64,000 nt of DNA from Minisyncoccota bacterium (GCA_009885085.1 VFLK01000033.1:7135-71134); one strand, 5' to 3'. Shown: positions 10,815 through 55,274, counted from the stretch's first letter. Numbers and translations are program-made. Notes: generated by a model from the sequence alone, not told the origin.

Positions 10815-11082
10815 AATGTGCGTAAGTATACCTCAAGGATAGAACTTTAACCACTAAAAATATACAGAAATTCGCACAATGATCCTACTTGCTGGACATT
10901 AGTAACTGTGATAATTTAATGAAGCTGTGGAATGTAGTGAAAATCTACAACTGTGCCGCAACGGTGTATTTTGATATTTTTCAAAATAAGTCCGATCTTC
11001 AGCAAATATTTTATTGACGAGCATCAAAATTGTGATTATTTATTTAGCCTTTGTACTAATAAAATAAACACCCGAAAAAATG

Positions 11083-11108: not shown

Positions 11109-11195
11109 CTTCAGTAATCTAGCGGCACAGAATTTCCAGAAGCAAAAGCAATTGAACAGATTGCCTGTAAAAATATATTCTTGGAAAGGAATAGT

Positions 11196-11915
11196 ATGCT
11201 AGAAAAAACTGAATCACTCGATATGTATCACCAGTTTAATGGAGAAAATCCGCTAGGATCTTTCAAAATTGAAGATGTTCTTCAAATAACTGGATTAAAT
11301 ACTTTTCTTGATGAAATGAATGCTTTATTTAAAGAATCAAGTCCTTTTCTCAATCAAGTGTCCCTTTTGTTTACTCACTATAGAAGACAGCTTGCATCCT
11401 TGCGTATTGAGATGCTAAATAATTTAGCCGCAAAACAATTACTTCAAGATTTTGGAGTAGCGGGCATTGGAATAGATGATAAGGGAAATGCTGACTCTCT
11501 GATCACTCAACAAATATTATCAGTCCATGGTAAATTAGTTGTTAATTTAGAAACAACTTCCATAGAACTTCCAAGTTCTGTGGCTAAATTCACCACGTTC
11601 ATTGTCGCTGTTCAAAAAGAAATAATTCGGATTTTAGTAGATTCACAAAAATCTATTTCTGCTGAAATAGAAGCAAAAGAAACTGAAGAAACAAAAGTAG
11701 ATAATCATCTATCTAGTCATACAAATACACACCATCGTTTGGCATCTGAATCGATCCAAGTTTCAAGACAAGCTCAAGAAAAAAGAAAAAAAGCAACACA
11801 TATTGAAAAAGAAAGTGCACACAATCAATTAAAAACTTTATTTTCTTATCTAAAAAACATCTTTAATCCAGTTGCTATGGGAACTCGAGAATTCATGTCA
11901 ATGACTGCGCAATAG
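11196..11915 (+). CDS. hypothetical protein
   Basis: ORF 11181..11915; the second ATG at 11196 has a GGAAAGGA Shine-Dalgarno-like sequence; no family recognised. Confidence 0.45.
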   Translation: MLEKTESLDMYHQFNGENPLGSFKIEDVLQITGLNTFLDEMNALFKESSPFLNQVSLLFTHYRRQLASLRIEMLNNLAAKQLLQDFGVAGIGIDDKGNADSLITQQILSVHGKLVVNLETTSIELPSSVAKFTTFIVAVQKEIIRILVDSQKSISAEIEAKETEETKVDNHLSSHTNTHHRLASESIQVSRQAQEKRKKATHIEKESAHNQLKTLFSYLKNIFNPVAMGTREFMSMTAQ

Positions 11916-27060: not shown

Positions 27061-27138
27061 ATTGCACTTGATGTTCGCTTCAACTTAGTGATACACTTTG
27101 TCATTAAGAGTACTAGTCTATACAATCGAGATTATCAT

Positions 27139-28482
27139 ATGGCACTTGTTAAACCCACAAACACAACTTTCGCAAAAATTAAAGTTATCGGTGTCGGTGG
27201 TGGTGGTGGAAATGCTGTTAACTCGATGATCGACTCTGAACAAATACATGGCGTTGAGTTTATTGCAGTTAATACTGATGCTCAGGCACTTCTAACTTCC
27301 AAAGCAGAAACTAAACTACAAATTGGCACAAATTTTACCAAGGGTTTGGGATCTGGAGCAGACCCTGAAGTTGGTAGAACTGCTGCCGAAGAATCATACG
27401 ACAAACTCAAAGATTTGCTTTTCGATACTGACATGGTTTTTATTACCGCTGGCATGGGTGGTGGCACTGGAACTGGTGCTTCATCGATAATCGCTGAGAT
27501 TGCACGTGAAGCCGGTGCATTAACTGTTGCTGTCGTTACAAAACCATTTGCATTTGAAGGTAAAAAAAGAATGGCAACAGCTGAAGAAGGTGTCGCCAGT
27601 CTTAAAGACACCGTCGATACATTGATTATCATTCCCAACCAAAGATTGATGGATGTGGTTGATAAAAAAATGACCTTTCTTGATGCTTTTAGGTTGGCTG
27701 ATAATGTTCTTGGCCAAGGTGTCCAAGGAATTTCCGATCTAATCACAGTTCCAGGACTTATTAATGTAGATTTCGCTGATGTTAAAACCATTATGTCTGA
27801 ATCTGGCTCGGCTTTAATGGGTATTGGAGAAGCTAGTGGAGAAAATAGAGCTGCAACTGCAGCAAGAATGGCAATCGCCTCGCCACTATTGGAAATTTCT
27901 ATAGATGGAGCCAAAGGCATCCTCTACAACATTATTGGTGGACCTGACATGGCCATGAGTGAAGTTTCAGATGCTTCGACAATTATTGCCAACGCTGCAG
28001 ATCCTGAAGCAAATATAATCTTTGGAGCTACGATCGACGAAACGATGGGGACAAAGATCAAAATTAGTGTGATCGCCACCGGGTTTGATAGTGATGATTT
28101 AAAATTACCTTCAAATAGACCTCTATTTGGCGCATATGGCAGAGACTCAAGAAATAGATTTAAACAGGAAGCAGAAGAGAAAAAAGAACCAGCTGCTTTA
28201 AAATATGACAGAACTCCAACCGGATTTACTCAACCTCTTTCGACAGCCCAAATTTCATCAACCAAAAATGATGAAGTTACTGAGCCTTTTGTAAAATCTC
28301 AAGCTTTTGGAGACAGAGTAAACAATAACACTGGCTTTAGAGCAGTCAATCCTTTGATTGAAAAATCTGATGATGACTCTGATACTAAATCAAAACCAGA
28401 AGAAAAAAAGAAGTCTATCTTAAGCGCATTTGAGGATGAGTTCGAAATTCCAGCTTTTTTAAGAAGAAATAAAAAAAGCTAA
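27139..28482 (+). CDS. ftsZ: cell division GTPase FtsZ
   Basis: [15 protein letters not shown] and GGGTGTGA tubulin signature, conserved C-terminal EIPAFLRR peptide; start chosen at the internal ATG (the ORF-track 27088 start is also possible). Confidence 0.9.
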
Positions 28483-28494
28483 TTTTAATCTTTT

Positions 28495-28586
28495 TATGAT
28501 TTGTTGTAACGTTAATTAGTTTCGCTAGATTTAGCGAATAATTGTAAATCAACGCTCCACAAGATTAACTTATACAACAAATCATA
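28495..28586. repeat. 14-bp perfect inverted repeat (tatgatttgttgta ... tacaacaaatcata) with 64-nt spacer containing an inner hairpin, downstream of ftsZ
   Basis: read directly. Confidence 0.6.
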
Positions 28587-28652
28587 AAATTTATTAACTC
28601 TATTTCTCACAAAAAAAATCTGAAATGTTCTATAATAAATAGAATTAGAGTG

Positions 28653-28726
28653 CGGGTATAGTTCATCGGTAGAATGCTAGCTTCCCAAGCTGGATAGAGG
28701 AGTTCGACTCTCCTTACCCGCTCCAA
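28653..28726 (+). tRNA. tRNA-Gly (anticodon CCC), CCA encoded
   Basis: manual cloverleaf: acceptor gcgggta/tacccgc, D-arm gttc/gaat, anticodon stem ctagc/gctgg, loop ttCCCaa, T-arm aggag-ttcgact-ctcct, discriminator t, CCA; TATAAT at about 28632 upstream. Confidence 0.85.
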
Positions 28727-28777
28727 ATGTTCAAAGTTCATAAGAAAATTACTAGGAAATTACATAAAATAACAATT

Positions 28778-29167
28778 ATGTACAAAAAACTATTAAAACT
28801 TGCCGCATGGAAAAAGATACTTATTGCTGTGGTTTTAGGGCTAATTACATTTGTTGGTTGGTTCGTATACGAAATTACTACTGATGAACCACCTAATTTC
28901 TTTCCCTTAAATGATGTCCAAGCAGAGTATAGAGGAAATAATGTTCAATGGAAAGAAGACCACAGTAATTCTAACTTTTTTAGCATAACAATTGGAAAAA
29001 GTAATATTGACCTGGAATCTTATATAGGTAAAAAAGTCAAAAACCTGTTTGAGCACCTAATAATATGGCGACTCCTACAGGCACTGATATGGAAAGATTG
29101 TCATAAAAGACTAGGCCAGTTCTGGCCAATCCAATTTCTCCTGCAACAACCAAACCAAAACAAGTGA
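28778..29167 (+). CDS. small hypothetical membrane-anchored protein immediately 3' of tRNA-Gly
   Basis: ORF 28727..29167 abuts the tRNA; internal ATG 28778 followed by TM helix ILIAVVLGLITFVGWFVY; no family recognised. Confidence 0.35.
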   Translation: MYKKLLKLAAWKKILIAVVLGLITFVGWFVYEITTDEPPNFFPLNDVQAEYRGNNVQWKEDHSNSNFFSITIGKSNIDLESYIGKKVKNLFEHLIIWRLLQALIWKDCHKRLGQFWPIQFLLQQPNQNK

Positions 29168-29317
29168 TCAGAAATATGACCAATTTTATTGTTGGGCTTA
29201 TCATTGTTTCTCTCCCATCTCCCGACCAAGGATCTGAGGTTTCTTGAAGATTAAATCGACTCTTCTACAGAATTTGTAAAATGTCGATTCACTCTCCAAG
29301 ATATTTGCATTATACAT

Positions 29318-29357
29318 CAATGATAAATAGGAAATCGTTATTTATCATTGTTATAAT
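29318..29357 (+). promoter_or_regulatory. perfect 12-bp palindrome (caatgataaata-N8-tatttatcattg) abutting a TATAAT -10 box; candidate operator and promoter of the downstream four-gene operon
   Basis: palindrome 29318..29350 and TATAAT 29352..29357 read directly; about 160-nt leader to the 29518 start. Confidence 0.4.
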
Positions 29358-29517
29358 CAAAAAATGCCAACCTCAATCTAAGTTTTTATCCAACTTCCTC
29401 ACCAATTCCAGCTTTCCAAAATGAGCTGACAAAATATAAAATCTCCAAGGATACTATCCAATATTCACTTTACACATCTTATTTACTTCCAGTCATAAAA
29501 AGTGTAGTTTTAAATAT

Positions 29518-31893
29518 ATGATATTAAATGATGCTAGAAATGTTGACCATCAATGGAATAGAAATTCAACAAAACAAGAAATTCTTGCTTCTGAAAAAGA
29601 TGATGCAGATATTATTGGCAATATATTGGAATTTACAGCAGATACAAAAATATTTTTAGCACACCTACGATATTCAAACGAAGAAGTTCTAAAAAAAATT
29701 GGCATCAAAACAAAAGACCAAATAGATGCTTGGACATCCTTCGTATATTCATCTATAGAATTATTTCACGGCCTAGCTACAAAAGGAAAAGGTGAATGGG
29801 GTATGACTTGGGGTTTAACAGCAAAAGATCCCAAAGATATTGAAAAGCTTCAAAATAAAGTCATAAACAGTATTGTTTATGAAACACTCAGAGATGTACA
29901 GCCTGGAAAAGAAAAACCAGCTATAAAATATGAGTACAAAACTAATAAAGATGGTAGCTTAAAGTCGGTTGAACCACTAGCTGACTCAAGACGTGACCCC
30001 ATTACCTTTCGCGTACTCAGAGGTGGGCCACCCCCACTAGATTTTATAGATATAAACATATCGATGAGTACAATTATTTCCTCAAATGCAAATACTGATA
30101 ACAAAGATATTAATCCGTTGGACATAATTCCCTGGAAAGGAATTATGGATGGCAACGAAAAAATACTTGAAATGCTTAAAACAATAACCGGTATCAAAAT
30201 TGGACCACCAAGATATCTTAAGGACTGGCATGAAGAGCCAGACGACGATGAAAATCATAAAACTGACAGAACAGGAGAATTTTTCAAACCTGATGTTTTG
30301 ATTGGCAAAGGTGATAAAAATTGGCGACTAACAAAATTTGGCAATGACGCAAGAATCATGATGTTGGCTGAGTATGGTGATAAGTTTGGAAGATCTGCTG
30401 CTATTAATGTTTCATTTGCTCAGCATGCCTCTGGAGATGGATTGGAGTTAATGGGCAGCGAATCAGCAAAAAAAGAAGACATGAAATCTGCCTATGACCA
30501 GACTCTTAAAAAACCAGAAATAAGAGAACTTTTAGACGAAAATGGCAAAGCAGAATCAGTCGAGGCACTTGAGTTAATTGGAGAATTTGAACCTCAAGTA
30601 TTGCCTTTCCATACACTCTTGTCTGCTAAATTTGGTCGGTTTGGGTTGGGTGACATGAGACAACAAATTGAGAGAAGAATTGCGGCAACCCAGTTTCAAA
30701 GTAAAGTCATGGCAAAATTTGGAGCAAGAGTTGATGCTATAAGAATACAAGTTGGAATTAAGTTAGACCCTGAGTTGACGGAGGCTTCCAGAAAAACAGT
30801 CAAACAAATCAAGGGAAAAGGTGTTGAAAAAATGAATGGATCTCTTTTAAATGCTATGGCACATCATCTGCATGCGGGCGAATCATGCGGCGTAATGATA
30901 CAACCAATAGAAGGTAGAACAACTCTCGTAACTGTGGGCAATAAGGTTTGGGAAAAATGGGAAAATGTCTGTGATAAATTTTCAAATGATGATCAAATAG
31001 ATAGGTTAAGAGCCTATCCAAGTATGAAAAATGGCATAAAAGTTATTAGGGATAGATTAAAAAACCTTCAATGGCTTCCAGATAGCAACGAACTTGATGA
31101 CTCAGAAACAAGCATGTGGCTAAATGAAAATATTCCAATAATAAAAAATATATTTTCTTTTGACAATGAACTTAGAAATCAGATTGAGCCGATCAGAAAT
31201 TCTGTAACAAACAGTGTAAATGAAATAACTGATGTTGATTCATTTTTAAAGAAAGTAAGAAATAAAAGCGGCGGTGTAGTCACAAATAAAAATGCCGAGT
31301 GGGACCTGAGTAGCATGACAAACAAAATGAACTTAATTATTACAAAAGCAAAAATGAATCCTAATACTCCTTTTTCAAAACTTATAATCCAAATTGATGA
31401 GACATTTAAAAATAGCAGTCAAAATGAATATCAAACAGAAGAATTTAGTAATAAAATTAAATCTCTAAACATCGCTGGAAAATTTTATCCGCTTAGAACT
31501 TTTTCACTAAATGTAAACCATGATCCAACAAGATCAAAAATAAATACAATTTTTCTTGCATGTGACCAACAAAAACTAGATGGTTTTGACTGGATACTTT
31601 CGGACACCGAACACAATGAAGAAGGATTTATCAAATCATTTGAAGCTGAGTTTGAAGACACTGCTAGTAGTATGGGAAACGTAGGTGATTTCTTTATTGA
31701 AGCTGGCAAAGACCCAAACCTAACTGCTCCTGCAATAAGTAGAGATTTGGGATTTCTAGCAGTCGTAGAAGGATGGGCAGTAAATCACACACCTAACACT
31801 GCTGCTGCAGCAAGGTCACAAATTTTTCGATCAGGGTTGCTTGAACCAGCAGACTCTGTTGGAACCGCCGTAGTCTTTCAAACAGCAACCTAA
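29518..31893 (+). CDS. large hypothetical protein (791 aa), first gene of the tRNA-Gly-adjacent operon; no TM, no P-loop, no recognisable domain
   Basis: long uninterrupted ORF; HHLHAGESCG His/Cys cluster; ends at a single TAA that is in frame with the next ORF. Confidence 0.6.
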   Translation: MILNDARNVDHQWNRNSTKQEILASEKDDADIIGNILEFTADTKIFLAHLRYSNEEVLKKIGIKTKDQIDAWTSFVYSSIELFHGLATKGKGEWGMTWGLTAKDPKDIEKLQNKVINSIVYETLRDVQPGKEKPAIKYEYKTNKDGSLKSVEPLADSRRDPITFRVLRGGPPPLDFIDINISMSTIISSNANTDNKDINPLDIIPWKGIMDGNEKILEMLKTITGIKIGPPRYLKDWHEEPDDDENHKTDRTGEFFKPDVLIGKGDKNWRLTKFGNDARIMMLAEYGDKFGRSAAINVSFAQHASGDGLELMGSESAKKEDMKSAYDQTLKKPEIRELLDENGKAESVEALELIGEFEPQVLPFHTLLSAKFGRFGLGDMRQQIERRIAATQFQSKVMAKFGARVDAIRIQVGIKLDPELTEASRKTVKQIKGKGVEKMNGSLLNAMAHHLHAGESCGVMIQPIEGRTTLVTVGNKVWEKWENVCDKFSNDDQIDRLRAYPSMKNGIKVIRDRLKNLQWLPDSNELDDSETSMWLNENIPIIKNIFSFDNELRNQIEPIRNSVTNSVNEITDVDSFLKKVRNKSGGVVTNKNAEWDLSSMTNKMNLIITKAKMNPNTPFSKLIIQIDETFKNSSQNEYQTEEFSNKIKSLNIAGKFYPLRTFSLNVNHDPTRSKINTIFLACDQQKLDGFDWILSDTEHNEEGFIKSFEAEFEDTASSMGNVGDFFIEAGKDPNLTAPAISRDLGFLAVVEGWAVNHTPNTAAAARSQIFRSGLLEPADSVGTAVVFQTAT

Positions 31894-31899
31894 GCTGGA

Positions 31900-32613
31900 G
31901 TGCCAGGACTTGGTGCAATGGGAAACAGCATGGCCATCGCTGACACCAGAGAAACATCTGGACTCAAGGAATCACTTGATCATCCTGCAAAAATGATGGA
32001 TGTATTATTGCCATGGTTGAGAGGAAATGAAAATGTAAAAACTGCTTTTAAAAATTTTCTTGGAGTAAACTTAGACATAGGTAACGAAAAAACAAAAGAA
32101 GAAAAGAATAATCGCAAAAAATTATCACTCTTTCAAAAAATGCTTTCTGAAGATGATTTTGCCTGTTTTAACGACAATAACTCAGAAAAAATTGTTAGAA
32201 GAAATGATTTAAGAATCTGGGGACCAAAAAGAGATGAAGAAAAAAGATTAACAGCTAGTGATTTAAGCGTCAGATATAAACATCATCTAGAGGGAGAACT
32301 TTTATTTGATATGTGGAATCAATTTATAGATGCAGTTGATCAAAATAAAGTAAAAATTGATGATAGAACAAAAGAATCTATCAAAAAATTTAACGGAACG
32401 GGTTTTAAAGAAATGTGGGGAGCAATGATAAAGTTTAGAGCTTTAGACATGCAACATCAAACCGCAAAAGCAAATCTGATCATGAGACTGTGGTTAAATC
32501 CCCATGATCACGATGAGTCTTCGTGGGAAATTTATGTAAGACAATTTAACACTGCAAGAGAATCCTATCGAAACATGGAAAAGGTATTTTCAGTTTTTGG
32601 GAAAGAATACTAA
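31900..32613 (+). CDS. hypothetical protein (237 aa), in the same frame as the upstream ORF and separated from it by one TAA plus two codons; possible C-terminal extension or split gene
   Basis: GTG 31900 (or ATG 31918) start; no convincing spaced SD; frame identity with 29518..31893 computed from coordinates. Confidence 0.5.
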   Translation: MPGLGAMGNSMAIADTRETSGLKESLDHPAKMMDVLLPWLRGNENVKTAFKNFLGVNLDIGNEKTKEEKNNRKKLSLFQKMLSEDDFACFNDNNSEKIVRRNDLRIWGPKRDEEKRLTASDLSVRYKHHLEGELLFDMWNQFIDAVDQNKVKIDDRTKESIKKFNGTGFKEMWGAMIKFRALDMQHQTAKANLIMRLWLNPHDHDESSWEIYVRQFNTARESYRNMEKVFSVFGKEY

Positions 32614-32615
32614 TC

Positions 32616-34739
32616 ATGATTTACGAACCTGATGGCTCATTATCTAACCTAACACTTCCAAGAGATGAAGTGTTAATTGCAATCTATGAAAAACAGAATG
32701 AAGCTTTATTCCTAATTCTTGGAGCTGACAAACCACCAATATTCACTAAAGAATTTGCCGCCAAAGAGTTAGCAATTCAACCACAAGAAACTCCAGGATT
32801 ACTAAAAAGAATTTGGTTTGAAAAGGATGAAAAAAATAAGACGTATAAATTGTGCGGTGTAGGGAAGTGGGGAGGTCAAAATTCAAAACTTGCAGAAATA
32901 TCTATAAATCTTGATATGGAAGAAGCAAATCGACTAATGAGTCTAGCTTCTAATAATAGAATTGAAGAGATAAACTCCTTATCAAATAATTCTGAATTAG
33001 CAAAAACCCCAAAAATTGAAAATTACAGAAAAATGCTAGAAGAAGCTGAAAAAATATTTTTTGCAATGCTAACAGATTATTCTGGAAAAATTGTAGTTGA
33101 TGAAACTGAAAGTGAAAAAAGTAAAAAAAGCTCTGAAGTAAAAAAGGATACGGCGCCTTTAGACACAATTGATGTTCAAATCATGCCAACTGAGAAAACT
33201 GATAAAAAAGATCTACTAAACAAATTAGCTGAAACTATGGAGCTTCGGGTGTTATTTTTAAATAGAAATAACAACGAAATTTCTTACGCTGATATATCCG
33301 AAGTTATAAAATTATTAGTAAATCCAGAAAATGTTGAAAAATATTTTAATAATTTAGGAATTGGCTCAGATGTCATTAGTGAAAAGGAACATTTTGAAAA
33401 TGAACTAAAAAAAATGACGAATGAGTATGCCAGCGGAAAAGTTAAAAACTTGCAAACAATTTTGGAAACAAGAAAACAAAATCAGCTCCAAACAATTTCG
33501 CAGATGATTAATACAATTGTTGAACAAATACCAATGCTTGCTAAAAGTCCAAAAACTTTTGACATTATAAAAAATGCTATGGATCTTGATAATGACTTAG
33601 CCGAGCAACTTGTCAAAGAATATAACGAAACTTCCACAATATCATTTGAAACTGTTTTCGATAATCTCGAAGGTGCAACTGAGTTATTTGAAGCAAAAGT
33701 ATTAGAAATAATTCTAGCAGATTATGAGGATCAAATTAATTCGCTAAAAATTGAATTTAATAAAATAATAGCTTCGCAGACAATCTCAAGGTGTATTGAG
33801 TGGGCCCAACCTCCTTTTTCTACTCCAGTTGATTCAAATATTCAACTCAACGTAGATCCTACTTTATTAGATCAAGCAATTAAATTTTCGTTTAGTCCAG
33901 AAAAGTGGGATATTAATTTAGTTACTTATGCACTAAATAACACTAGACATTCAGATGGCGAAATTGGAAGTAAAATACCAGGCAATAATATTTCAGGACT
34001 ACGAAAAACTAGAGAGAAATTAGATGACTATTTAAAACAGATGGTTGAAAAAAGTAATACGGAAAGTTTTGGTGCTCAATTTAAAGCCTGGATGAAAAAA
34101 TACAGCGATGGAAATATTAACCCAGATTATTACTTATTAAGTTTTACCTCGGTTTTAAAAACACCTTGGAAAAAACTTGAAGAAGAAATCTGGAAAAAAA
34201 CAATGGCCGAGTGGTTAAAATCAAATAAAGAAAAACTAAAAGCCATTGTTACTAACGAACTTAGTAAAAAAGGTGGCGCAATAGATGAAATCAAAAGTCA
34301 TGATAAAGCGATAGCAAAATCAACTGAAATATGGTTTAAATGGCGTCATGAATTGAAAAAAATATTACAAGAAAAATCACTAAATGCTCAAACGGATGTT
34401 GATATTCTAGTTGACTGGTCGCTAAAACAACAATACCCTGACGATAGAATGAAAACAAAAACAAATGAAGTTGCAATTGATTGGGATAAGGACAAAGAAC
34501 TGATAGAAAAACTTAAAGTTGATCATCTAAGAATTTGGAATATAATTTTTCACACCAGAAATATTGCCAAAAGTCTCAACTTAGGTATAGACACAAATGT
34601 TGTTCAATGGCTAAAAAGAATTTCTTTTCAAGCAAAAATGAGCAATCATTATGGATCAGATACTTTTCTCACAAGCGAAGGTGTGGAGTGGAGAGAAAAT
34701 ATTGAGGCCAAAGCCAAAGAAACAACTTCACAAAAATGA
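32616..34739 (+). CDS. large hypothetical protein (707 aa), K/E-rich and probably mostly alpha-helical, no TM or P-loop
   Basis: starts 2 nt after the upstream stop; stop overlaps the next start (ATGA). Confidence 0.6.
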   Translation: MIYEPDGSLSNLTLPRDEVLIAIYEKQNEALFLILGADKPPIFTKEFAAKELAIQPQETPGLLKRIWFEKDEKNKTYKLCGVGKWGGQNSKLAEISINLDMEEANRLMSLASNNRIEEINSLSNNSELAKTPKIENYRKMLEEAEKIFFAMLTDYSGKIVVDETESEKSKKSSEVKKDTAPLDTIDVQIMPTEKTDKKDLLNKLAETMELRVLFLNRNNNEISYADISEVIKLLVNPENVEKYFNNLGIGSDVISEKEHFENELKKMTNEYASGKVKNLQTILETRKQNQLQTISQMINTIVEQIPMLAKSPKTFDIIKNAMDLDNDLAEQLVKEYNETSTISFETVFDNLEGATELFEAKVLEIILADYEDQINSLKIEFNKIIASQTISRCIEWAQPPFSTPVDSNIQLNVDPTLLDQAIKFSFSPEKWDINLVTYALNNTRHSDGEIGSKIPGNNISGLRKTREKLDDYLKQMVEKSNTESFGAQFKAWMKKYSDGNINPDYYLLSFTSVLKTPWKKLEEEIWKKTMAEWLKSNKEKLKAIVTNELSKKGGAIDEIKSHDKAIAKSTEIWFKWRHELKKILQEKSLNAQTDVDILVDWSLKQQYPDDRMKTKTNEVAIDWDKDKELIEKLKVDHLRIWNIIFHTRNIAKSLNLGIDTNVVQWLKRISFQAKMSNHYGSDTFLTSEGVEWRENIEAKAKETTSQK

Positions 34740-37207
34740 TAAGTCGAGAAACAAGCAAACCACAATCCCGCAACGATTTTCTATCGATTCCTGGTCTTGA
34801 TGAAAGAGCACAAGCAACAATTTTTGCCAAAGAAATAGAATTATTGCCTCCAAGAATGCGAAATTATATTGCTATTTTGATGCGAGAAAATAGCAGAGCT
34901 GGCATATTTAAAAAAAGACAATCTGAAGAAAATCTTACAGCACTACTTGAGCCAGCTAGAGAACTGATTAGTTTGTTACATATAACTGAAAATATGCCAG
35001 AGGTTGTGGAAAACCTCCATATCAGGTGGGCAAAAATTATTGAAACTCAACCATATAATGAAAAAACAAGACGAAGAGATATAAGAGAAATATGGTTAGA
35101 TATAATTGAAAAAGGTGTTAAAACCGCGCAAACAACATTTATCTGCAGAGAAATTAGAGACCGAATGATCTCCAGAAGCTATCTCGATAAACCCAGTCAG
35201 GCAATTTCCAAATTTGATACAGAAATACTAAATAAATTAGCTGCCTGGTGCTATGAAGCCCAAGGAGATAAATATAAAGTTGAAAATGGTTACCAGCTAT
35301 TTAAAGAAGATTTGGGAAAAATACTAGAAATTTCACAAGATACTGGCATATCGGCAGAAAATTATTTTAATCACAGAGACAAATCCATAATGCCATGGTT
35401 TTTTATGCTGTTGGTTGGTGATAATTCTGAATTTAGTAAATTCATGTATGAAAAAATAGGCAATAAAGAATCAATGAGACCACACATAAACCTTGGAGTG
35501 ACAGGTATTGATATAGCATTAGGCGAGAATGGACTTGAAGAAAGACCAGACGATCTTTACAAACGTCTTGCTGATCTTTTATATCCTGACGGCTATCCAG
35601 AAGGAATTAAAGGAAAAATTAAAAATTCAGAACAAAGAAGTATTTTTATTGAGAAAGGCAGCGAACTTAAGTGTAAAGTAGCAGACCCAGGTTCAGACTC
35701 ATATGAAAGAGCTTATATCAAAAAGGAAATTGAAATCCTAAAAACTGATTTCCAAGATGATGGCATAGAAATGCACGACAATTTTGGCTATGAAAAACCA
35801 GCTCTTTTTATGTCCTTAGATATTAATTTAATGTCTGATCTCATGGGAATAACTGGTAGCTGGACCAAGTGGCTTGAAGCAATGGCCCATATTAGAGAAC
35901 AAGAAACAACTTGCAACATACCAATTTCTCCAGATGAAGCATTAACTTTGATGAACTGGGATTTAGAGTCTGATTTAAAAAATAAAATCCTCACAAAAGC
36001 AATGCTGATTGCTCATTTCAATAGAGCTGCTGGCTTAGAACAACATCACGGCTATGGAGGAAATAAAAATATTTATAATGATCAATTTTGGGCTAGACTA
36101 GCTTACAATTTATCATTGCCAGAAAATAAAGATGGAGCTCACACTTTGACTCCAGAAATATTAGCTAAAATTTCAGAATCTTCTCAGGACGAAGAAGAAA
36201 TGGCGCAAAAACTTGGATTCTTACTCTCTGGCAGAGTTACTACAATTAATCTCAGTGTGATGGGTGCAAATAGAACTGGAAAAGATGAACAAGCAAGTAC
36301 GATGGAAAGTTCTTCGTATGCAGTCACAGAATCTTGCAGAGCTTATGGCCTTTATGAGCAAGGAAAAGATCCTAAGCCAACAGTTGCTTCTGGACATTCC
36401 ATGGGTGCTCAAATTTTAGAAAGAGCTTTGTTACTTTTGCCTCAAAGTGTAAGAAATTGGGTTGACTTTCTTTCCGTAACTGGAGTCTATACAAGTGAAA
36501 TGAGTGCAATGTCTTTTCTTAAAAAAGGAATGAATAAACTTCACCCATTATTAATTAAACTTGTAACAAATAAGAACATTACTAAACAACAGTTGGGGAA
36601 ATTTATGTCAGGCGCTGGAGAAATCTTACCAATTAAAAAAATAATACTAAAAGGCGCCACCTATTCTCAAGCCAGAACACCAATGGATTTCAAGATTGGA
36701 TTACCAATTGCAGCGGCGCATGAAATAAGTTTGAATTCAGCTCCAGAATATTTATTAGGACAAATGGGAGCAATTGATAACAGCAAAGATAGACATTCAT
36801 TTGATGAACTTGCGTCAACAATATCTACATTTGGTAAAGACATGGTAACAAGAACGGTTGGACGAATTGATTCTGTCCTACATCCTGGAAAATCAATGAG
36901 GGCTCTAAAAAATTCAGACAAAAATATTAGAATAAAAGATTTTGATAAAATGACTATTCCTGAAATGGTTAAGTGGGTAAATGAGACTGAAGTGAATACT
37001 GGTGAACCAATTGAAGTTATCCTGGCTAAAGTTCCACACTACATACAAACGACTGAACTAGGTAGATGGTTGATTAGATTGCAACACATGAAAAAACTAA
37101 AATTACATACTTATGGATATAGAAAAAAAGGTGAAAATTCAGAAGCAACTCAAAATATCAGCAATACAACAAGATCAATTACCGAATTATTTATGGGGAG
37201 AAATTAA
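34736..37207 (+). CDS. large hypothetical protein (823 aa) with a GHSMG (GxSxG nucleophile-elbow-like) motif; candidate serine hydrolase or acyltransferase domain
   Basis: ATGA overlap with the upstream gene; GHSMG encoded at 36392..36406 in frame. Confidence 0.55.
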   Translation: MISRETSKPQSRNDFLSIPGLDERAQATIFAKEIELLPPRMRNYIAILMRENSRAGIFKKRQSEENLTALLEPARELISLLHITENMPEVVENLHIRWAKIIETQPYNEKTRRRDIREIWLDIIEKGVKTAQTTFICREIRDRMISRSYLDKPSQAISKFDTEILNKLAAWCYEAQGDKYKVENGYQLFKEDLGKILEISQDTGISAENYFNHRDKSIMPWFFMLLVGDNSEFSKFMYEKIGNKESMRPHINLGVTGIDIALGENGLEERPDDLYKRLADLLYPDGYPEGIKGKIKNSEQRSIFIEKGSELKCKVADPGSDSYERAYIKKEIEILKTDFQDDGIEMHDNFGYEKPALFMSLDINLMSDLMGITGSWTKWLEAMAHIREQETTCNIPISPDEALTLMNWDLESDLKNKILTKAMLIAHFNRAAGLEQHHGYGGNKNIYNDQFWARLAYNLSLPENKDGAHTLTPEILAKISESSQDEEEMAQKLGFLLSGRVTTINLSVMGANRTGKDEQASTMESSSYAVTESCRAYGLYEQGKDPKPTVASGHSMGAQILERALLLLPQSVRNWVDFLSVTGVYTSEMSAMSFLKKGMNKLHPLLIKLVTNKNITKQQLGKFMSGAGEILPIKKIILKGATYSQARTPMDFKIGLPIAAAHEISLNSAPEYLLGQMGAIDNSKDRHSFDELASTISTFGKDMVTRTVGRIDSVLHPGKSMRALKNSDKNIRIKDFDKMTIPEMVKWVNETEVNTGEPIEVILAKVPHYIQTTELGRWLIRLQHMKKLKLHTYGYRKKGENSEATQNISNTTRSITELFMGRN

Positions 37208-37225
37208 GAGTTAATTATCTATTTG

Positions 37226-37234
37226 TGATATAAT
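37226..37234 (+). promoter_or_regulatory. extended -10 promoter element TGaTATAAT for the ileS leader
   Basis: read directly; TSS would fall near 37241. Confidence 0.4.
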
Positions 37235-37240
37235 ATTCCA

Positions 37241-37575
37241 AAATCCGCTTGAGTTCTGCCACATAATGTGGATATCACAGAACAAGGTGAGGGAAGAACA
37301 TTTTGATGTTTTGTTAATTAGCTCAAAAAAAAGCCTGATAACAAAACAAAAAATAACTAGATCTCTCCGGGTAAGCCCGTAATTGCTGCAAACAAGAGAT
37401 TTGGTTTTTAAATCGCAACTTTTTATGCCCAAAGCATAATAAATTGCATTTCTTCCAAATAAATAGAGGTGGTACCGCCACACTCAACATAAAGTTGAAT
37501 TGAAGGCCCTCTTATAACTAGTTTAAATCGTGCGTCGTGCGTATGAAATGAGCTAGTTATAAGTGGGCTTTTTTG
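37241..37575 (+). ncRNA. T-box riboswitch leader of ileS
   Basis: AUC specifier followed by A at 37274..37277; T-box consensus match AAAUAGAGGUGGUACCGCC at 37461..37479; antiterminator pairing AGAGG/CCUCU and GCC/GGC; 15-bp terminator stem 37507..37521 / 37553..37567 followed by CTTTTTT, overlapping the antiterminator 3' strand. Confidence 0.7.
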
Positions 37576-37597
37576 TAGCAAGAATAACAAAGGAAAC

Positions 37598-40495
37598 ATG
37601 CCTAAACTAAAAGAAATGCCTCTCAGACCAAATTTAGCTGAACTCGAAGAATCAGTTCTTGAATATTGGCAAAAAAATAAATCTTTCGAAAAATCTGTCG
37701 AAATGAGAGATAAAAGTAAGTCCTATGTTTTTTATGATGGACCTCCATTTGCCACTGGTTTGCCACATTATGGTCATCTGCTTGGCAGTACTTCCAAAGA
37801 CGTGGTGCCTAGATACTGGACCATGAAGGGCTATCGAGTTGAGAGAGTCTGGGGCTGGGATTGTCACGGTCTTCCAATCGAGAACATGATAGAGAAACAA
37901 CTGGATATCAAAGGCGGTAAAAAGGGGATTGAAGCTCTTGGAATCGATAAATTTAATCAGGCATGTCATACCGAGGTTTTACGTTTAGATGGTGCATGGA
38001 AAACGATCATCGATCGCCTGGGTCGTTGGGTCGATTTTGAAAATAATTATAAAACCATGGACACAACCTACATGGAATCAGTTTGGTGGGGTTTTAAACA
38101 ATTAGTTGATAAAGATTTAGTTTATCAAGGCAAAAAAATTGTGATGTACTGTCCACGTTGCTCGACACCATTGTCAAACTTCGAGATCGCCATGGACAAC
38201 TCATACGAAGATGTAGAGGATTTTTCAGTCTATATTAAATTTAAAATAGTAGAAAAAGACCTGACTTCAAAAAATAGCAATGAATATCTCATAGCCTGGA
38301 CCACAACACCTTGGACTCTTCCAGGAAATGTCGGTTTAGCAGTCAATTCAAAAGCAGATTATGTTCAGGTTGAATACGTTTCACAGGAAACAAAAGAAAC
38401 CGAACTACTTTGGGTAGCCAAAGATTTAGTTGAAAAAGTTTTTGAAAACAAAGAATACACCGTTCAAAAAACCGTTAAAGGCAGTGAATTAGTAGGCAAA
38501 CACTATCAACCACTTTTTGATTACATAAATTCAGATACAGACGGCGCAAAAAATAAACCAAATGCCTGGTCAGTTTTAGATGCTAATTTTGTCAGTATGG
38601 AAGATGGTACTGGAATCGTTCACACCGCGGCAATTTTTGGAGAAGATGACTATGCTCTGGCTCTCGAAAAAGATTTGCCATTAATTCCAACTCTTAGTGA
38701 TGAAGGAAAATTCTTACCTTTTGTAGAAATAGTTGCTGGTAAATTTTACAAAAGTGCAGAAAAACCAATCAACGCAGATCTAACCAAACGTGGGCTCATG
38801 TTTAAAGAAGGTAAAATTACTCACTCATATCCATTCTGTTATCGTTGCTCAACACCACTTTATTACAATGCAGTTCCAGCCTGGTATATCAATGTTCAAA
38901 AACTAAAAAATGAGTTACTTAAGCAAAATGAAAAAATGAATTGGTACCCTGAGTATCTGAAGGAAGGCCGTTTTGGTAAAGGCCTGGAAACTGCACCGGA
39001 TTGGAATATTTCCAGATCTAGGTATTGGGGTACTCCTATGCCAGTCTGGATTTCTAATGATGAGCTAAAAGGAGAAACCAAAGTCGGTGGCTATAAAAAA
39101 CTTAGAGTTATCGAATCAGTAGCAGAACTAAAAAAATGGGCAGTCGATCCAAAGCAAGTGGAAAATTTAACCGATCTTCATCGAGAATTTTTAGATAATT
39201 TAGAAGTTTGGATTGATGATGACAAAACAATTAAGGGAAGTAGAATACCTGAGGTTTTTGACTGTTGGGTTGAGTCAGGTTCAATGCCGTTTGCTTCAAA
39301 ACATTATCCATTTGAAAATAAAGAAGAGTTTGAAAGTACATATCCCGCTCAATTCGTCAGTGAATATATTGCCCAAACCAGAGCTTGGTTCTATACCATG
39401 CACGTTATCTCAGTTGGAATTTTTGGTAAAAATGCAGTTGAAAATACATTGACGACTGGGACCATTTTGGCAGAAGACGGCAATAAAATGAGTAAGTCAA
39501 AGAAAAACTACCCAGATCCAATGCTACTGATAAATGAGTATGGAGTTGATAGTTTAAGACTTTATCTCATGAGTTCAACTGTGATGAAATCTGAAAACTT
39601 GAATTTTAGCGAACGAGAAGTATCTGATATTCGTAAAAAAGTTTTCTTGATCTGGTGGAATATGTTTGCTTTCTACAAGTTATACGCAAAAAAAGACTCT
39701 AAAGTTTCTTTAACCGAAGTTCCAACCTCTGATGATGTGATGGACAAATGGGTCTTGAGCAGACTCAATACCTTAATTAAAGATGTGACTGAGTATATGG
39801 ATGACTACAATCTCATCAAAGCAAGTCGAGAACTAATGAATTTTGTAGATGAATTGTCTACCTGGTATCTTAGAAGAAGTCGAGATCGCTTGCGTAACTC
39901 TTCAAGCCCATCTTTAACTGTGTTCGGATATGTTTTAGTCAAGCTATCACAATTATTTGCTCCAATAACTCCATTTTTTAGTGAAACTATGTGGCACAAT
40001 TTAGTTGATGACAAAACCAGTGTGCATCATACAGATTGGCCAATTGTTGATGAAAATTTAATTCATAAAACACTTGAAGACAAAATGGATAATGTAAGAA
40101 AAGTAGTTGAAAAAACTCTTTCACTTAGAAGTGAGGCAGGAATCAAGGTTCGTCAACCATTAGCAAAAATTACATGTTTCGTGACCGGAGACTCACCTAA
40201 AGAAAATTTGTTGGAAGTTCTTGCTGACGAAGTTAATGTCAAAAAAGTAGAGTGGAAAAGAACAACTGAAACTTTGCGAGTAATTCTAGATACAGATCTT
40301 ACTGACGAATTAAAATCCGAAGGTGATGCAAGAGAACTGATGAGAAATATTCAAAAATTAAGAAAAAAAGCTGGCCTTCAAGTAAATGACGCTATAACTG
40401 TAGAAGTTCCAGAGTGGCCAAAGAAATGGGAAACTGAAATTGAAAAAAAGACAGGATCCAAACTTGTCAAAGGAAATGAGCTGAAAATAGTTTAG
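37598..40495 (+). CDS. ileS: isoleucyl-tRNA synthetase
   Basis: PPFATGLPHYGHLLG (HIGH) ... WDCHGLPIE and KMSKS (GNKMSKSKKN) motifs, 965 aa. Confidence 0.9.
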   Translation: MPKLKEMPLRPNLAELEESVLEYWQKNKSFEKSVEMRDKSKSYVFYDGPPFATGLPHYGHLLGSTSKDVVPRYWTMKGYRVERVWGWDCHGLPIENMIEKQLDIKGGKKGIEALGIDKFNQACHTEVLRLDGAWKTIIDRLGRWVDFENNYKTMDTTYMESVWWGFKQLVDKDLVYQGKKIVMYCPRCSTPLSNFEIAMDNSYEDVEDFSVYIKFKIVEKDLTSKNSNEYLIAWTTTPWTLPGNVGLAVNSKADYVQVEYVSQETKETELLWVAKDLVEKVFENKEYTVQKTVKGSELVGKHYQPLFDYINSDTDGAKNKPNAWSVLDANFVSMEDGTGIVHTAAIFGEDDYALALEKDLPLIPTLSDEGKFLPFVEIVAGKFYKSAEKPINADLTKRGLMFKEGKITHSYPFCYRCSTPLYYNAVPAWYINVQKLKNELLKQNEKMNWYPEYLKEGRFGKGLETAPDWNISRSRYWGTPMPVWISNDELKGETKVGGYKKLRVIESVAELKKWAVDPKQVENLTDLHREFLDNLEVWIDDDKTIKGSRIPEVFDCWVESGSMPFASKHYPFENKEEFESTYPAQFVSEYIAQTRAWFYTMHVISVGIFGKNAVENTLTTGTILAEDGNKMSKSKKNYPDPMLLINEYGVDSLRLYLMSSTVMKSENLNFSEREVSDIRKKVFLIWWNMFAFYKLYAKKDSKVSLTEVPTSDDVMDKWVLSRLNTLIKDVTEYMDDYNLIKASRELMNFVDELSTWYLRRSRDRLRNSSSPSLTVFGYVLVKLSQLFAPITPFFSETMWHNLVDDKTSVHHTDWPIVDENLIHKTLEDKMDNVRKVVEKTLSLRSEAGIKVRQPLAKITCFVTGDSPKENLLEVLADEVNVKKVEWKRTTETLRVILDTDLTDELKSEGDARELMRNIQKLRKKAGLQVNDAITVEVPEWPKKWETEIEKKTGSKLVKGNELKIV

Positions 40496-40509
40496 TATAT
40501 TATTGGCTT

Positions 40510-41574
40510 ATGAAATACTGGTTGATTCCTTTAGTAATCTTGATTCTCAGTTTGCTCAGCATTCTGACTTTATCTAGTATTGCCCCAGCGCTTGCGCCTA
40601 AGCAATTAATCTTTTTTATGGTCGGGTTTAGCGTATTTTTCTTAATATCAAAAATTCAATTTAGAAGACTCTTAAAGTTAGGACTAATTTTTTACATCAT
40701 TAATATTGGCCTGCTTGTTGCAGTTTTGCTGTTAGCACCGATTACTAGAGGATCGACTCGTTGGATTGATATCGGAGGTCTTTTCACAATCCAACCGTCA
40801 CAACTTGCTATTCTAGCAACCAGTCTGTTTTTGATTAATTTCTTTAAAAAAAGGTCACTGACCAACATTAAAAACTTGTTTCTATTTTTACTTTATACTG
40901 CAATTCCAGGAGTGCTTATTTTGATTGAGCCAGATTTGGGGACTACAATTGTTTACTTAATATCAATTGCAGTCATTATTTTTCTTTCAAGAACAAAATT
41001 TCGTCATATCGCACCATTGATACTTATAGGAATTGCTGGCATTATTTTTTCCTGGTATTTTGTTTTTCAGCCTTATCAAAAATCTAGAGTTACCTCTTTC
41101 ATTTCACCAGCTGAAGATCAAGATGCTAGCTACAATGCTCAACAGTCATTAATTGCCGCTGGATCTGGAAAACTTACCGGAAAAGGCTTAGGACAAGGGA
41201 TTCAATCTCATCTTCGATTTCTTCCAGAAAGACAAACAGATTTTGTATTCGCTTCGTTCGCAGAAGAATTTGGCTTCGTTGGATCAGCTCTACTAATTTC
41301 CTTATATTTTGTCCTCATAACCGCCATGATATCTACCGCTGAAAAATCACATGAAAAGACTGAAAAATATTTTTGTTATGTGGTTGCAATAATGACCACT
41401 TTTCAGATTGGAGTTAACATTGGAATGAATATTGGAATTTTACCAATTACAGGCATAACATTACCATTTATTTCCTATGGTGGGAGCTCAATTCTTTCAC
41501 TTATTGGTATGCTTGGAATTGTCCAATCGATTCGTATTCACCAGAAGCAAAAAGTAAGCCTACATTTGTCTTAG
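40510..41574 (+). CDS. SEDS-family protein (RodA/FtsW paralogue)
   Basis: multi-TM, IEPDLGTTIVYL motif; second SEDS gene in the window, outside the dcw cluster. Confidence 0.75.
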   Translation: MKYWLIPLVILILSLLSILTLSSIAPALAPKQLIFFMVGFSVFFLISKIQFRRLLKLGLIFYIINIGLLVAVLLLAPITRGSTRWIDIGGLFTIQPSQLAILATSLFLINFFKKRSLTNIKNLFLFLLYTAIPGVLILIEPDLGTTIVYLISIAVIIFLSRTKFRHIAPLILIGIAGIIFSWYFVFQPYQKSRVTSFISPAEDQDASYNAQQSLIAAGSGKLTGKGLGQGIQSHLRFLPERQTDFVFASFAEEFGFVGSALLISLYFVLITAMISTAEKSHEKTEKYFCYVVAIMTTFQIGVNIGMNIGILPITGITLPFISYGGSSILSLIGMLGIVQSIRIHQKQKVSLHLS

Positions 41575-55021: not shown

Positions 55022-55030
55022 CAAAAAAAA

Positions 55031-55056: not shown

Positions 55057-55060
55057 TTTT

Positions 55061-55078: not shown

Positions 55079-55094
55079 ACGATTCGCTACTATT

Positions 55095-55272: not shown

Positions 55273-55274
55273 AG

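What the first reader, a model, noticed from the sequence alone, without database searches (positions are those of the whole stretch)
29318..29357. Perfect 12-bp palindrome overlapping the -10 box of the island operon promoter
caatgataaata-ggaaatcg-tatttatcattg (12+8+12) ends 2 nt before a TATAAT hexamer, about 160 nt upstream of the first island gene. Its geometry is typical of a dimeric repressor operator occluding the promoter. This would make the operon tightly regulated, as is common for toxic, defence or mobile-element genes, and no regulator gene is evident inside the block. A second 7-bp inverted repeat (aatcgac...gtcgatt) lies about 60 nt upstream.
Basis: seen in the sequence. Interest (0 to 1): 0.5.

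Follow-up and report, generated by a model that had tools for sequence, protein, structure and literature searches.

The report
Palindrome between two back-to-back promoters
A real, non-random 12-bp perfect palindrome sits between two outward-facing promoter boxes in a Woesebacteria-like (CPR) genome and may be a repressor binding site, but it is absent from the only related genome, has no second copy and has no known regulator, so it stays an ordinary, unproven operator candidate.

Summary
The palindrome exists and is not chance, but its geometry needs correcting. The arms are CAATGATAAATA (29318-29329) and TATTTATCATTG (29339-29350). The spacer is 9 nt, not 8, and the palindrome ends 1 nt, not 2, before TATAAT (29352-29357). 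Its last two bases are the TG of an extended -10, TGTTATAAT.

This -10 is conserved in the one related genome (Ca. Woesebacteria, L001). There it lies 6 nt before the ATG of a DUF1801 gene, a leaderless layout common in this window.

The palindrome is the core of a ~65-bp mirror-symmetric unit. A second TATAAT on the minus strand points at a 25-bp hairpin, a Shine-Dalgarno site and a 55-aa hydrophobic ORF with gene-like codon usage.

L001 lacks the palindrome: everything between tRNA-Gly and CATTG is missing there. No second copy turned up in the window or in the public collections, and no regulator gene was found.

Best reading, at about 0.4: a symmetric protein-binding site shared by two divergent promoters. 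Rivals are a neutral inverted duplication, an RNA hairpin, and a recombination scar. The four-ORF block is not recognisably defence or mobile; its last gene has an alpha/beta-hydrolase fold.

The parts
28652..28725 (+). tRNA-Gly(CCC), the conserved left landmark of the locus
   Evidence: ARAGORN and Rfam. The same tRNA is present in L001.
28778..29047 (+). Decayed copy of a 152-aa membrane-anchored Cys-containing protein family. It has a 27-aa in-frame deletion and has lost its C-terminal 35 aa. The open frame runs on by chance to 29167.
   Evidence: Homologues P0004-P0011 and tblastn. DNA homology to L006 stops near 29043. In L004 the intact gene also follows a tRNA-Gly.
29037..29204 (-). ORF55, a putative small hydrophobic protein: MISPTIKLVIFLITCFGLVVAGEIGLARTGLVFYDNLSISVPVGVAILLGAQTGF
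   Evidence: Translation. Its codon-usage score of 0.252 per codon falls within real genes (0.326 +/- 0.114) and is reached by only 0.5% of wrong-frame windows. The annotated + frame over the same DNA scores -0.377. No homologue was found.
29210..29223 (-). Shine-Dalgarno-like GGGAGATGGGAGAG. The GGAG core lies 7 nt before the ORF55 ATG.
   Evidence: Read from the sequence. Other SD-led genes in the window use GGAG.
29242..29301 (-). It would sit at the 5' end of a minus-strand transcript.
   Evidence: Minus strand -28.2 kcal/mol, z = -8.0. Plus strand -16.5 kcal/mol, z = -2.7. It has 22 Watson-Crick pairs plus 3 G-U pairs that become A-C on the plus strand.
29309..29314 (-). Mirror-image TATAAT on the minus strand, 3 nt from the left arm. 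Candidate -10 box for ORF55.
   Evidence: Sequence; inverted repeats I4 and I13.
29318..29350 (.). The palindrome: two perfect 12-bp arms and a 9-nt spacer, with half-site centres 21 bp apart
29349..29357 (+). Extended -10 promoter TGTTATAAT, conserved in L001 as TGATATAAT
29364..29470 (+). DUF1801 pseudogene remnant. The ATG lies 6 nt after the -10 box and a stop follows after 5 codons. An out-of-frame fragment matches aa 62-93 of the L001 protein.
   Evidence: blastn block alignment. tblastn: 65.6% identity, E = 2.8e-10.
29198..29208 (+). Third copy of the arm sequence (TTATCATTGTT, identical to 29342-29352), overlapping the ORF55 start codon
   Evidence: (D4, I20).
29505..29510 (+). TAGTTT, 7 nt before the gene 1 ATG. 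An alternative leaderless-type -10 box for the block.
   Evidence: The surrounding 50 nt are conserved with L001.
29518..37207 (+). Downstream block of 791 + 237 aa (one 1031-aa gene in L001, split here by an in-frame TAA at 31891), then 707 and 823 aa

Best explanation
The palindrome is the symmetric core of a back-to-back, divergent promoter region.

On the plus strand its right arm runs into the extended -10 TGTTATAAT. This is the ancestral leaderless promoter of a DUF1801 gene. Here it heads a DUF1801 pseudogene and can read on into the 4-ORF block.

On the minus strand a mirror TATAAT lies 3 nt from the left arm. It points at a 25-bp 5' hairpin, a Shine-Dalgarno site and the 55-aa hydrophobic ORF55.

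The palindrome covers about -46 to -14 of the plus promoter and about -48 to -16 of the minus promoter. Its half-site centres are 21 bp apart, two helical turns.

The most likely role is a binding site for a symmetric (dimeric or tetrameric) DNA-binding protein. Such a protein would cover the TG/-35 zone of both promoters and repress both together.

Shown: the symmetry and its non-randomness, the conserved extended -10, the pseudogene nature of the 'leader', and the gene-like character of ORF55.

Inferred: both transcription starts, protein binding, and the direction of regulation.

The site is lineage-specific. It is not needed for the promoter to exist, because L001 keeps the promoter without it.
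For: - The arms are a perfect 12/12 match in DNA that is otherwise decaying. The flanking symmetry is only about 70% with an indel, so the core is better kept than its flanks.
- Non-randomness: p about 0.001 for this intergenic region; 5 observed against 0.27 expected in the window.
- The right arm contains the TG of an extended -10 that is conserved in L001. TGnTATAAT sites in the window sit upstream of genes, and a -10 box 6-9 nt before the ATG is the common gene-start layout here.
- A mirror TATAAT lies 3 nt from the left arm.
- ORF55 has gene-like codon usage and an SD at the right spacing, and its stop falls within about 10 nt of the point where homology to the neighbouring pseudogene ends.
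- The stem is A/T-rich (2 G-C pairs, -11.6 kcal/mol) and has no U-tract on either strand. That argues against a terminator and leaves a DNA-level role.
Against: - The palindrome is not conserved. L001/L002, the only relatives with this locus, go from tRNA-Gly through 18 nt straight to CATTG-TATAAT.
- There is no second copy: none within one mismatch in non-coding DNA of the window, none in genome contigs or viral contigs, and one unrelated hit in metagenome contigs.
- No HTH or other regulator gene lies nearby. The only DNA-binding protein recognised among the ORFs scanned is MraZ, 17 kb away.
- Perfect 12-bp arms are longer than a typical half-site and are equally typical of young inverted duplications.
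- The third copy of the arm extends into the non-palindromic TT (TTATCATTGTT). That looks more like a duplication junction than a third operator.
- No transcription start has been mapped.
Confidence: 0.4

Rival explanations
1. It is a neutral by-product. A local inverted duplication, for example by template switching, copied the promoter-proximal DNA (TATTTATCATTG-T-TATAAT-CAAAAAAT) in a locus that was being rearranged. The perfect arms reflect youth or hairpin-templated repair, not selection. At most the event created a second, outward-facing -10 box.
For: - The symmetry extends beyond the arms and includes a mirrored TATAAT plus A/T-rich flanks, as expected if a promoter segment was copied in inverse.
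- The surrounding DNA is visibly in flux: a decayed 152-aa gene, a decayed DUF1801 gene, an in-frame stop in gene 1, and a 300-bp segment with no homologue.
- An 11-bp direct repeat (TTATCATTGTT) lies 144 bp away.
- There is no conservation, no regulon and no regulator.
Against: The inner 12 bp are perfect while the outer roughly 15 bp have about 4 substitutions and a 2-nt indel. If all were one duplication decaying neutrally at about 30%, 12/12 identity has a probability near 0.014 (own calculation). ORF55 needs a promoter somewhere in 29205-29365, and the mirror TATAAT is the best candidate, so the structure is probably used.
Confidence: 0.25
2. It acts as an RNA hairpin: a terminator, 3'-end stabiliser or insulator for read-through transcripts from tRNA-Gly and the decayed 152-aa gene, placed just before the next promoter.
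For: - It folds with z = -4.5 (-11.6 kcal/mol).
- It lies downstream of a plus-strand unit and next to a second hairpin.
- Three of the other four long perfect inverted repeats in the window sit at gene or tRNA 3' ends, and the one at 615-644 also lacks a U-tract.
Against: - The stem has only 2 G-C pairs, the loop is 9 nt, and no U-tract follows on either strand. The terminator scan does not call it.
- It lies 150 nt beyond the stop of the upstream open frame and about 300 nt beyond the end of real homology.
- L001 has no hairpin between the tRNA and the same promoter.
- The adjacent hairpin folds far better on the minus strand, so it is not a plus-strand terminator partner.
Confidence: 0.12
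3. It is a recombination site or the end of a small mobile or integrated element that brought the orphan roughly 300-bp segment (29046-29345) to the tRNA-Gly locus.
For: - The segment has no homologue in relatives, and its right edge falls inside the right arm: homology with L001 resumes at CATTG, 29346.
- The locus lies next to a tRNA gene.
- 11-bp direct repeats at 29198 and 29342 could be a target duplication.
- The block genes have lower dS against L001 (0.49-0.70) than the flanking core genes (1.5-1.7), suggesting exchange at this locus.
Against: - There is no integrase or transposase. The tRNA 3' end is not repeated.
- No terminal inverted repeats bound the segment.
- No other copy exists in the window, phages, plasmids or viral contigs.
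- ORF55 has native codon usage.
- The first bases after the tRNA in L001 resemble the leader of the 152-aa gene. The difference is therefore better explained by a deletion in L001 than by an insertion here.
Confidence: 0.08
4. It is a chance palindrome in A/T-rich intergenic DNA.
For: Expected 0.27 per 64 kb, so a 1-Mb genome would hold a few by chance. One unrelated exact match exists in a JGI metagenome contig.
Against: Within this intergenic region p is about 0.001. The mirrored TATAAT and the third 11-mer copy add to the improbability.
Confidence: 0.03

Closest known systems
Shared palindromic operators of divergent promoter pairs, for example E. coli bioO bound by BirA between bioA and bioBFCD, or tetO between tetR and tetA (own knowledge, not tested here)
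   Same: A long dyad-symmetric site lies between two outward-facing -10 boxes, so one bound protein could shut both promoters.
   Different: There is no sequence resemblance, no cognate regulator gene and no conservation in the relative. One of the two 'genes' is a pseudogene and the other is an orphan 55-aa ORF.
CIRCE/HrcA operator (TTAGCACTC-N9-GAGTGCTAA; own knowledge)
   Same: An inverted repeat with a 9-bp spacer placed at a sigma-70-type promoter.
   Different: The arm sequence is unrelated and the arms are 12 rather than 9 bp. The genes are not chaperone genes. No other copy was found.
Fur-family boxes (7-1-7, TGATAAT-n-ATTATCA; own knowledge)
   Same: Each arm contains TGATAAA / TTTATCA, a 6/7 match to the Fur half-site.
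   Different: The 7-mers are 13 bp apart instead of 1, which does not fit a Fur dimer. No metal-related genes are involved.
Intrinsic (Rho-independent) terminators
   Same: A stable hairpin in intergenic DNA downstream of a plus-strand unit.
   Different: There are only 2 G-C pairs, a 9-nt loop and no U-tract. The scan does not call it. Real terminator-like hairpins in the same window (11946, 55231) have G/C-rich tops and U-runs.
Type I toxin-antitoxin loci (small hydrophobic peptide, structured 5' UTR, antisense transcription; own knowledge)
   Same: ORF55 is 55 aa and hydrophobic. It is preceded by a long 5' hairpin and a small stem pairing CCUC with the SD region. It is overlapped by plus-strand read-through from the tRNA unit.
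   Different: It has no homologue. No antitoxin RNA is defined, toxicity is untested, and it has two hydrophobic stretches rather than the usual one.

Membership tests
Transcription-factor operator | Dyad symmetry that overlaps core promoter elements | tested here: met
   12-9-12 perfect dyad. The right arm contains the TG of TGTTATAAT, and the left arm lies 3 nt from a minus-strand TATAAT.
Transcription-factor operator | Conservation at the orthologous promoter in related genomes | tested here: not met
   L001/L002 keep the extended -10 but have lost everything upstream of CATTG. Only one related lineage was available.
Transcription-factor operator | Further copies of the motif (a regulon) or a cognate regulator gene nearby | tested here: not met
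   The window holds no other non-coding copy. Exact-pattern scans gave 0 hits in genome contigs, 0 in viral contigs and 1 unrelated hit in metagenome contigs. No HTH protein lies near the locus. The rest of the source genome could not be searched.
Transcription-factor operator | Protein binding and an effect on transcription | not testable with these tools
   This needs EMSA or footprinting and mapping of transcription starts.
Intrinsic terminator | G+C-rich stem followed by a U-tract | tested here: not met
   2 G-C pairs of 12 and no T-run on either strand. The terminator scan does not list it.
CIRCE / HrcA | TTAGCACTC-N9-GAGTGCTAA consensus | tested here: not met
   Only the N9 spacing is shared. 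The arms are unrelated (the consensus is from own knowledge).
Fur box | 7-1-7 spacing of TGATAAT half-sites | tested here: not met
   The half-site-like 7-mers are 13 bp apart.
tRNA-targeted integrative island | Integrase gene and a direct repeat of the tRNA 3' end at the far border | tested here: not met
   The four block proteins and both flanking genes on each side have no integrase domain, and the 23-nt tRNA 3' end occurs only once within 3 mismatches. The same block lies at the same place in L001.
Anti-phage defence system | Match to known defence protein models | tested here: not met
   PADLOC gave 0 hits for all four proteins. The only hint is a sub-threshold BrxC/D match (E = 0.0022, 17 bits against a cut-off of 22).
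Type I toxin-antitoxin | Small hydrophobic toxin ORF with a structured 5' UTR and an antisense RNA | tested here: inconclusive
   The ORF, the SD and the hairpin are present, and codon usage is gene-like. No homologue was found, no antisense RNA gene is defined, and toxicity is untested.

The most novel reading that the evidence does not exclude
The orphan roughly 300-bp segment (29046-29350) is a self-contained small-gene cassette in a CPR bacterium. It would consist of a palindromic operator, a -10 box, a 25-bp 5' hairpin, a partly sequestered SD and a 55-aa membrane peptide. It would work like a type I toxin-antitoxin or membrane-peptide switch: opposed by antisense read-through from tRNA-Gly, and co-regulated through the shared palindrome with a rare block of giant proteins that includes an alpha/beta-hydrolase and appears to have been exchanged between Woesebacteria lineages.
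Probability: 0.1. Interest if true: 0.55.

Novelty: new member of a known kind. Interest (0 to 1): 0.3.

Why it matters
If the site is a true operator, it would be one of very few regulatory sites proposed for an uncultivated CPR (Woesebacteria-like) bacterium. These organisms encode few regulators, and their promoter architecture is known almost only from sequence. Here that architecture is an extended -10 with no -35 and mostly leaderless starts. A true operator would also tie a small membrane peptide to a block of very rare giant proteins.

As it stands, the value of the finding is mainly corrective:
- The 'operon leader' is a dead DUF1801 gene.
- The promoter is older than the palindrome's surroundings.
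- The palindrome is lineage-specific.

Tried and rejected
- **Relatives of gene 1.** The genome-contig scan found none. The 5.8-billion-protein search found only the source protein and one Woesebacteria protein.
- **Exact-protein look-ups.** Gene 1, FtsZ, P0001, P0003 and ORF55 are not on record, so the source contig cannot be retrieved.
- **Exact palindrome scan with spacers of 7-11 nt.** Genome contigs gave 0 and viral contigs gave 0. Metagenome contigs gave 1 hit, on an unrelated 1-kb A/T-rich contig (L005), judged coincidental.
- **Rfam on 28400-29700 at E up to 10.** Apart from tRNA-Gly(CCC), only noise.
- **Global MAFFT alignment of the locus.** It misplaced the indel and was replaced by blastn block alignment.
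- **The 300-bp segment against other DNA.** No match to L001-L004, L006, the rest of the window, phages or plasmids.
- **ORF55 homologues.** None by word index, Pfam-free libraries or viral contigs.
- **Paralogy among block genes.** None.
- **A distant gene 4 relative (L007).** It lies in a different context and says nothing about the palindrome.
- **Profile of gene 4 against PDB sequences.** Nothing significant. The fold search was needed.
- **Alignment A3 for a viral scan.** Too divergent to use.
- **Literature search for CPR promoter or leaderless data.** Nothing useful.
- **Resemblances considered and rejected.** dif/Xer sites, DnaA boxes, integron attC sites and IS200/IS605 ends were considered from memory and rejected on sequence and spacing.

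Full report
**1. The observation**

The sequence shows CAATGATAAATA at 29318-29329 and its exact reverse complement TATTTATCATTG at 29339-29350. The spacer between them is GGAAATCGT, which is 9 nt. One base (T, 29351) separates the palindrome from TATAAT at 29352-29357, not two. The last two bases of the right arm are TG, so the promoter element reads TGTTATAAT, an extended -10.

The palindrome is unlikely to be chance.
- Perfect inverted repeats with arms of at least 12 bp and loops up to 20 nt occur 5 times in the window, against 0.27 expected from dinucleotide shuffles.
- In intergenic DNA alone there are 4, against 0.013 expected.
- For this intergenic region alone, 0.1% of shuffles give one.

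The symmetry continues imperfectly over 29301-29365 (I4: 17 nt at 88%; I13: 14 nt at 79%). The reverse-complement self-match has E = 5.6e-5.

**2. Where we are**

The window is low-GC (about 35%). It carries a cell-division gene cluster ending in ftsA and ftsZ (27088-28482). After that come:
- tRNA-Gly(CCC) at 28652-28725;
- about 790 bp of poorly coding DNA;
- four ORFs of 791, 237, 707 and 823 aa with no Pfam, PADLOC, PHROGs or NCBIfam family;
- ileS and ftsW/rodA.

Gene 1 has only two relatives among 5.8 billion proteins. One is the source protein. The other is an 84%-identical 1031-aa protein annotated 'Candidatus Woesebacteria bacterium'. Its contig (L001, GCA_018000035.1, plus a Logan copy L002) has the same gene order: ftsA, ftsZ, tRNA-Gly, a 118-aa DUF1801 gene, the 1031/716/832-aa genes, ileS, ftsW and L21. 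The organism is therefore a CPR (Woesebacteria-like) bacterium, and the 'island' is present at the same place in its one known relative.

**3.

Block alignment of the window against L001 (after a global alignment failed) gives these correspondences:

| Feature | L001 | Window |
|---|---|---|
| After the tRNA | 18 nt | about 620 nt |
| Promoter element | CATTGATATAAT | CATTGTTATAAT |
| Spacer to ATG | 6 nt | 6 nt |
| What follows the ATG | intact DUF1801 gene | ATG CCA ACC TCA ATC TAA |

Further on, the window holds an out-of-frame fragment matching residues 62-93 of the L001 DUF1801 protein (29375-29470; 65.6% identity; E = 2.8e-10).

The layout '-10 box, 6-9 nt, ATG' recurs at many genes in the window, at 4895, 7640, 15629, 19302, 40510, 44515, 46018 and 52762. 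Four of the five TGnTATAAT sites lie on the plus strand just upstream of genes, including the ileS leader. The organism evidently uses extended -10 promoters without a -35 and often makes leaderless mRNAs. By its own standards TGTTATAAT at 29349 is a good promoter.

Whether this promoter drives the block is not shown. Gene 1 has its own TAGTTT box 7 nt before its ATG, inside a 50-nt stretch conserved with L001.

**4. What lies to the left**

The open frame 28727-29167 (annotated in the source as a 129-aa protein, P0003) belongs to a family of 152-aa membrane-anchored proteins with four conserved cysteines. In one relative (L004) the intact gene also sits directly after a tRNA-Gly gene.

The window copy has lost 27 internal residues and the last 35 residues. 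Homology ends at about 29045. The first bases after the tRNA in L001 resemble the leader of this gene. L001 has therefore most likely deleted the gene and everything up to CATTG, rather than the window having gained an insertion.

The next 300 bp (29046-29345) match nothing in L001-L004, L006, the rest of the window, phages, plasmids or viral contigs.

This orphan segment holds a coherent minus-strand unit:
- a TATAAT at 29314-29309, 3 nt from the left arm;
- a 25-bp hairpin starting about 8 nt downstream of it, with -28.2 kcal/mol and z = -8.0 on the minus strand against -16.5 and z = -2.7 on the plus strand. It has three G-U pairs that are A-C on the plus strand, which is only weak evidence (p = 1/8);
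- GGGAGATGGGAGAG, with GGAG 7 nt before an ATG;
- a 55-codon hydrophobic ORF (29204-29037).

The ORF's stop falls within about 10 nt of the homology breakpoint. Its codon usage scores 0.252 per codon. Real 55-codon windows of this genome score 0.326 +/- 0.114, and only 0.5% of wrong-frame windows reach 0.252. The annotated plus frame over the same DNA scores -0.377. ORF55 is therefore probably a real small gene, and the tail of the annotated plus-strand ORF probably is not. ORF55 has no detectable homologue.

**5. What the palindrome most likely does**

The palindrome sits between two outward-facing -10 boxes. If the plus-strand start is the A of the ATG at 29364 and the minus-strand start is near 29302, it spans about -46 to -14 and about -48 to -16 respectively. 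Both starts are inferred. The half-site centres are 21 bp apart, two helical turns. The right arm includes the TG that an extended -10 promoter depends on.

A symmetric protein bound here would block RNA polymerase at both promoters, so the operator reading is geometrically sound. It is helped by the contrast between the perfect core and the roughly 70%-identical flanks. If the whole mirror unit were one neutrally decaying duplication, 12/12 identity would have a probability near 0.014 (own arithmetic).

The hairpin is a poor terminator. It has 2 G-C pairs, a 9-nt loop and no U-tract, and the scan does not call it. The terminator-like hairpins at 11946 and 55231 have G/C-rich tops followed by U-runs.

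**6. What speaks against it**

- The one relative with this locus lacks the palindrome yet keeps the promoter.
- No second copy exists in non-coding DNA of the window. There is none in 185,579 species genomes or in IMG/VR, and the single JGI metagenome match lies on an unrelated A/T-rich contig.
- No regulator gene is near. The only DNA-binding protein recognised among the ORFs scanned is MraZ, at 12095.
- A third copy of the arm at 29198-29208 matches the right arm together with the two non-palindromic bases that follow it (TTATCATTGTT). That looks more like a duplication junction than a third operator.
- The locus is visibly degenerating: two pseudogene remnants and an in-frame TAA in gene 1, where L001 has TCT.

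I put the operator or shared-control-site reading at about 0.4. A neutral inverted duplication gets 0.25, an RNA hairpin 0.12, a recombination or mobile-element scar 0.08, and pure chance 0.03.

**7. The downstream block**

It is not recognisably toxic, defence or mobile. There are no PADLOC hits, no integrase and no repeat of the tRNA 3' end.

It is under purifying selection (dN/dS 0.10-0.22 against L001). This holds downstream of the in-frame stop as well. Its synonymous divergence (dS 0.49-0.70) is far lower than that of the flanking ftsZ and ileS (1.5-1.7), while ftsW is saturated. The block therefore seems to have been shared between the two lineages more recently than the core genes.

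Gene 4 belongs to a family with only 8 cluster representatives among 1.84 billion. Their alignment has an invariant H-S-M (H554, S555, M556) within a GHSMGG-like consensus, plus invariant Asp712 and His768. A model with pLDDT 75 and pTM 0.79 matches alpha/beta-hydrolase esterases and lipases over its C-terminal half.

**8. Comparison with known systems**

The closest functional analogues are shared palindromic operators of divergent promoters, such as bioO/BirA and tetO/TetR (own knowledge). CIRCE shares only the N9 spacing. The arms contain a Fur-like 7-mer, but at the wrong spacing (13 bp instead of 1). The site fails the tests for an intrinsic terminator. The ORF55 unit resembles a type I toxin locus in form only. 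None of these memberships is established.

**9. Verdict**

This is a real and statistically unusual palindrome in a plausible regulatory position. It is lineage-specific, single-copy and without a partner protein. It is a new, unproven member of a well-known kind of element. Interest is about 0.3.

Noticed in passing
window 31891-31893: An in-frame TAA (TCT, Ser, in L001) splits what is a single 1031-aa gene in the relative into 791 + 237 aa. The part after the stop still shows dN/dS of 0.10, so the stop is recent, tolerated or an assembly or population variant.
   Followed up: partly
window 29518-37207 compared with 27088-28482 and 37598-41574: Against L001, the block genes have dS of 0.49-0.70. 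The flanking ftsZ and ileS have 1.5-1.7, and ftsW is saturated. The block seems to have been exchanged between lineages more recently than the core genome diverged, although it sits at the same locus in both.
   Followed up: partly
window 34736-37207: Gene 4 (823 aa) belongs to a very rare family, with 8 cluster representatives in 1.84 billion proteins. The family has invariant H554-S555-M556 (a GHSMGG-like consensus), Asp712 and His768. The predicted C-terminal half has an alpha/beta-hydrolase (esterase/lipase) fold, and Pfam does not detect it.
   Followed up: yes
window 28778-29047; L003, L004, L006: A family of 152-aa membrane-anchored proteins with four conserved cysteines has a decayed copy in the window directly after tRNA-Gly(CCC). 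In L004 the intact gene directly follows a tRNA-Gly(TCC) gene. In L006 it follows a tRNA-like 3' end.
   Followed up: partly
window-wide, for example 4895, 7640, 15629, 19302, 40510, 44515, 46018, 52762: Many genes have a TATAAT or TATACT box ending 6-9 nt before the ATG and have no Shine-Dalgarno site. This suggests widespread leaderless mRNAs and -35-less extended -10 promoters in this CPR genome.
   Followed up: partly
window 46883-46906: A perfect 12+0+12 palindrome, CAGTCACAATTA|TAATTGTGACTG, lies inside the coding sequence of a polysaccharide-biosynthesis (Polysacc_synt_3) membrane protein.
   Followed up: no
window 54141-55347: A DUF6922 + AbiEii (type IV toxin-antitoxin-like) gene pair is followed by a 20-bp perfect hairpin (55231-55273) that abuts tRNA-Asp on the opposite strand. 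The hairpin is probably a bidirectional terminator.
   Followed up: no
window 37207-37598: The ileS leader is T-box-like, with AGAGGTGGTACCGCCAC and a terminator/antiterminator that is conserved in L001. It scores only 24 bits against Rfam T-box (gathering score 93). It has its own TGATATAAT promoter.
   Followed up: partly
window 10911-11009: An AdoCbl-II (cobalamin) riboswitch aptamer scores above the Rfam gathering score, upstream of an ORF of unknown family (11181-11915).
   Followed up: no
window 615-644: A 13-bp perfect hairpin with a GCGA loop lies 27 nt after the ORF that ends at 588. It has no U-tract. Its role, as a terminator or an RNA stabiliser, is unknown.
   Followed up: no
L004 1280-1320; L006 about 1250-1290; L003 2770-2815: A conserved tRNA-like 3' end (…GGTTCGAACTGAGTACTGTCCCCAGCTCCA) lies near the 152-aa gene in related contigs. 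ARAGORN, run on L003 and L004, does not call it as a tRNA.
   Followed up: no
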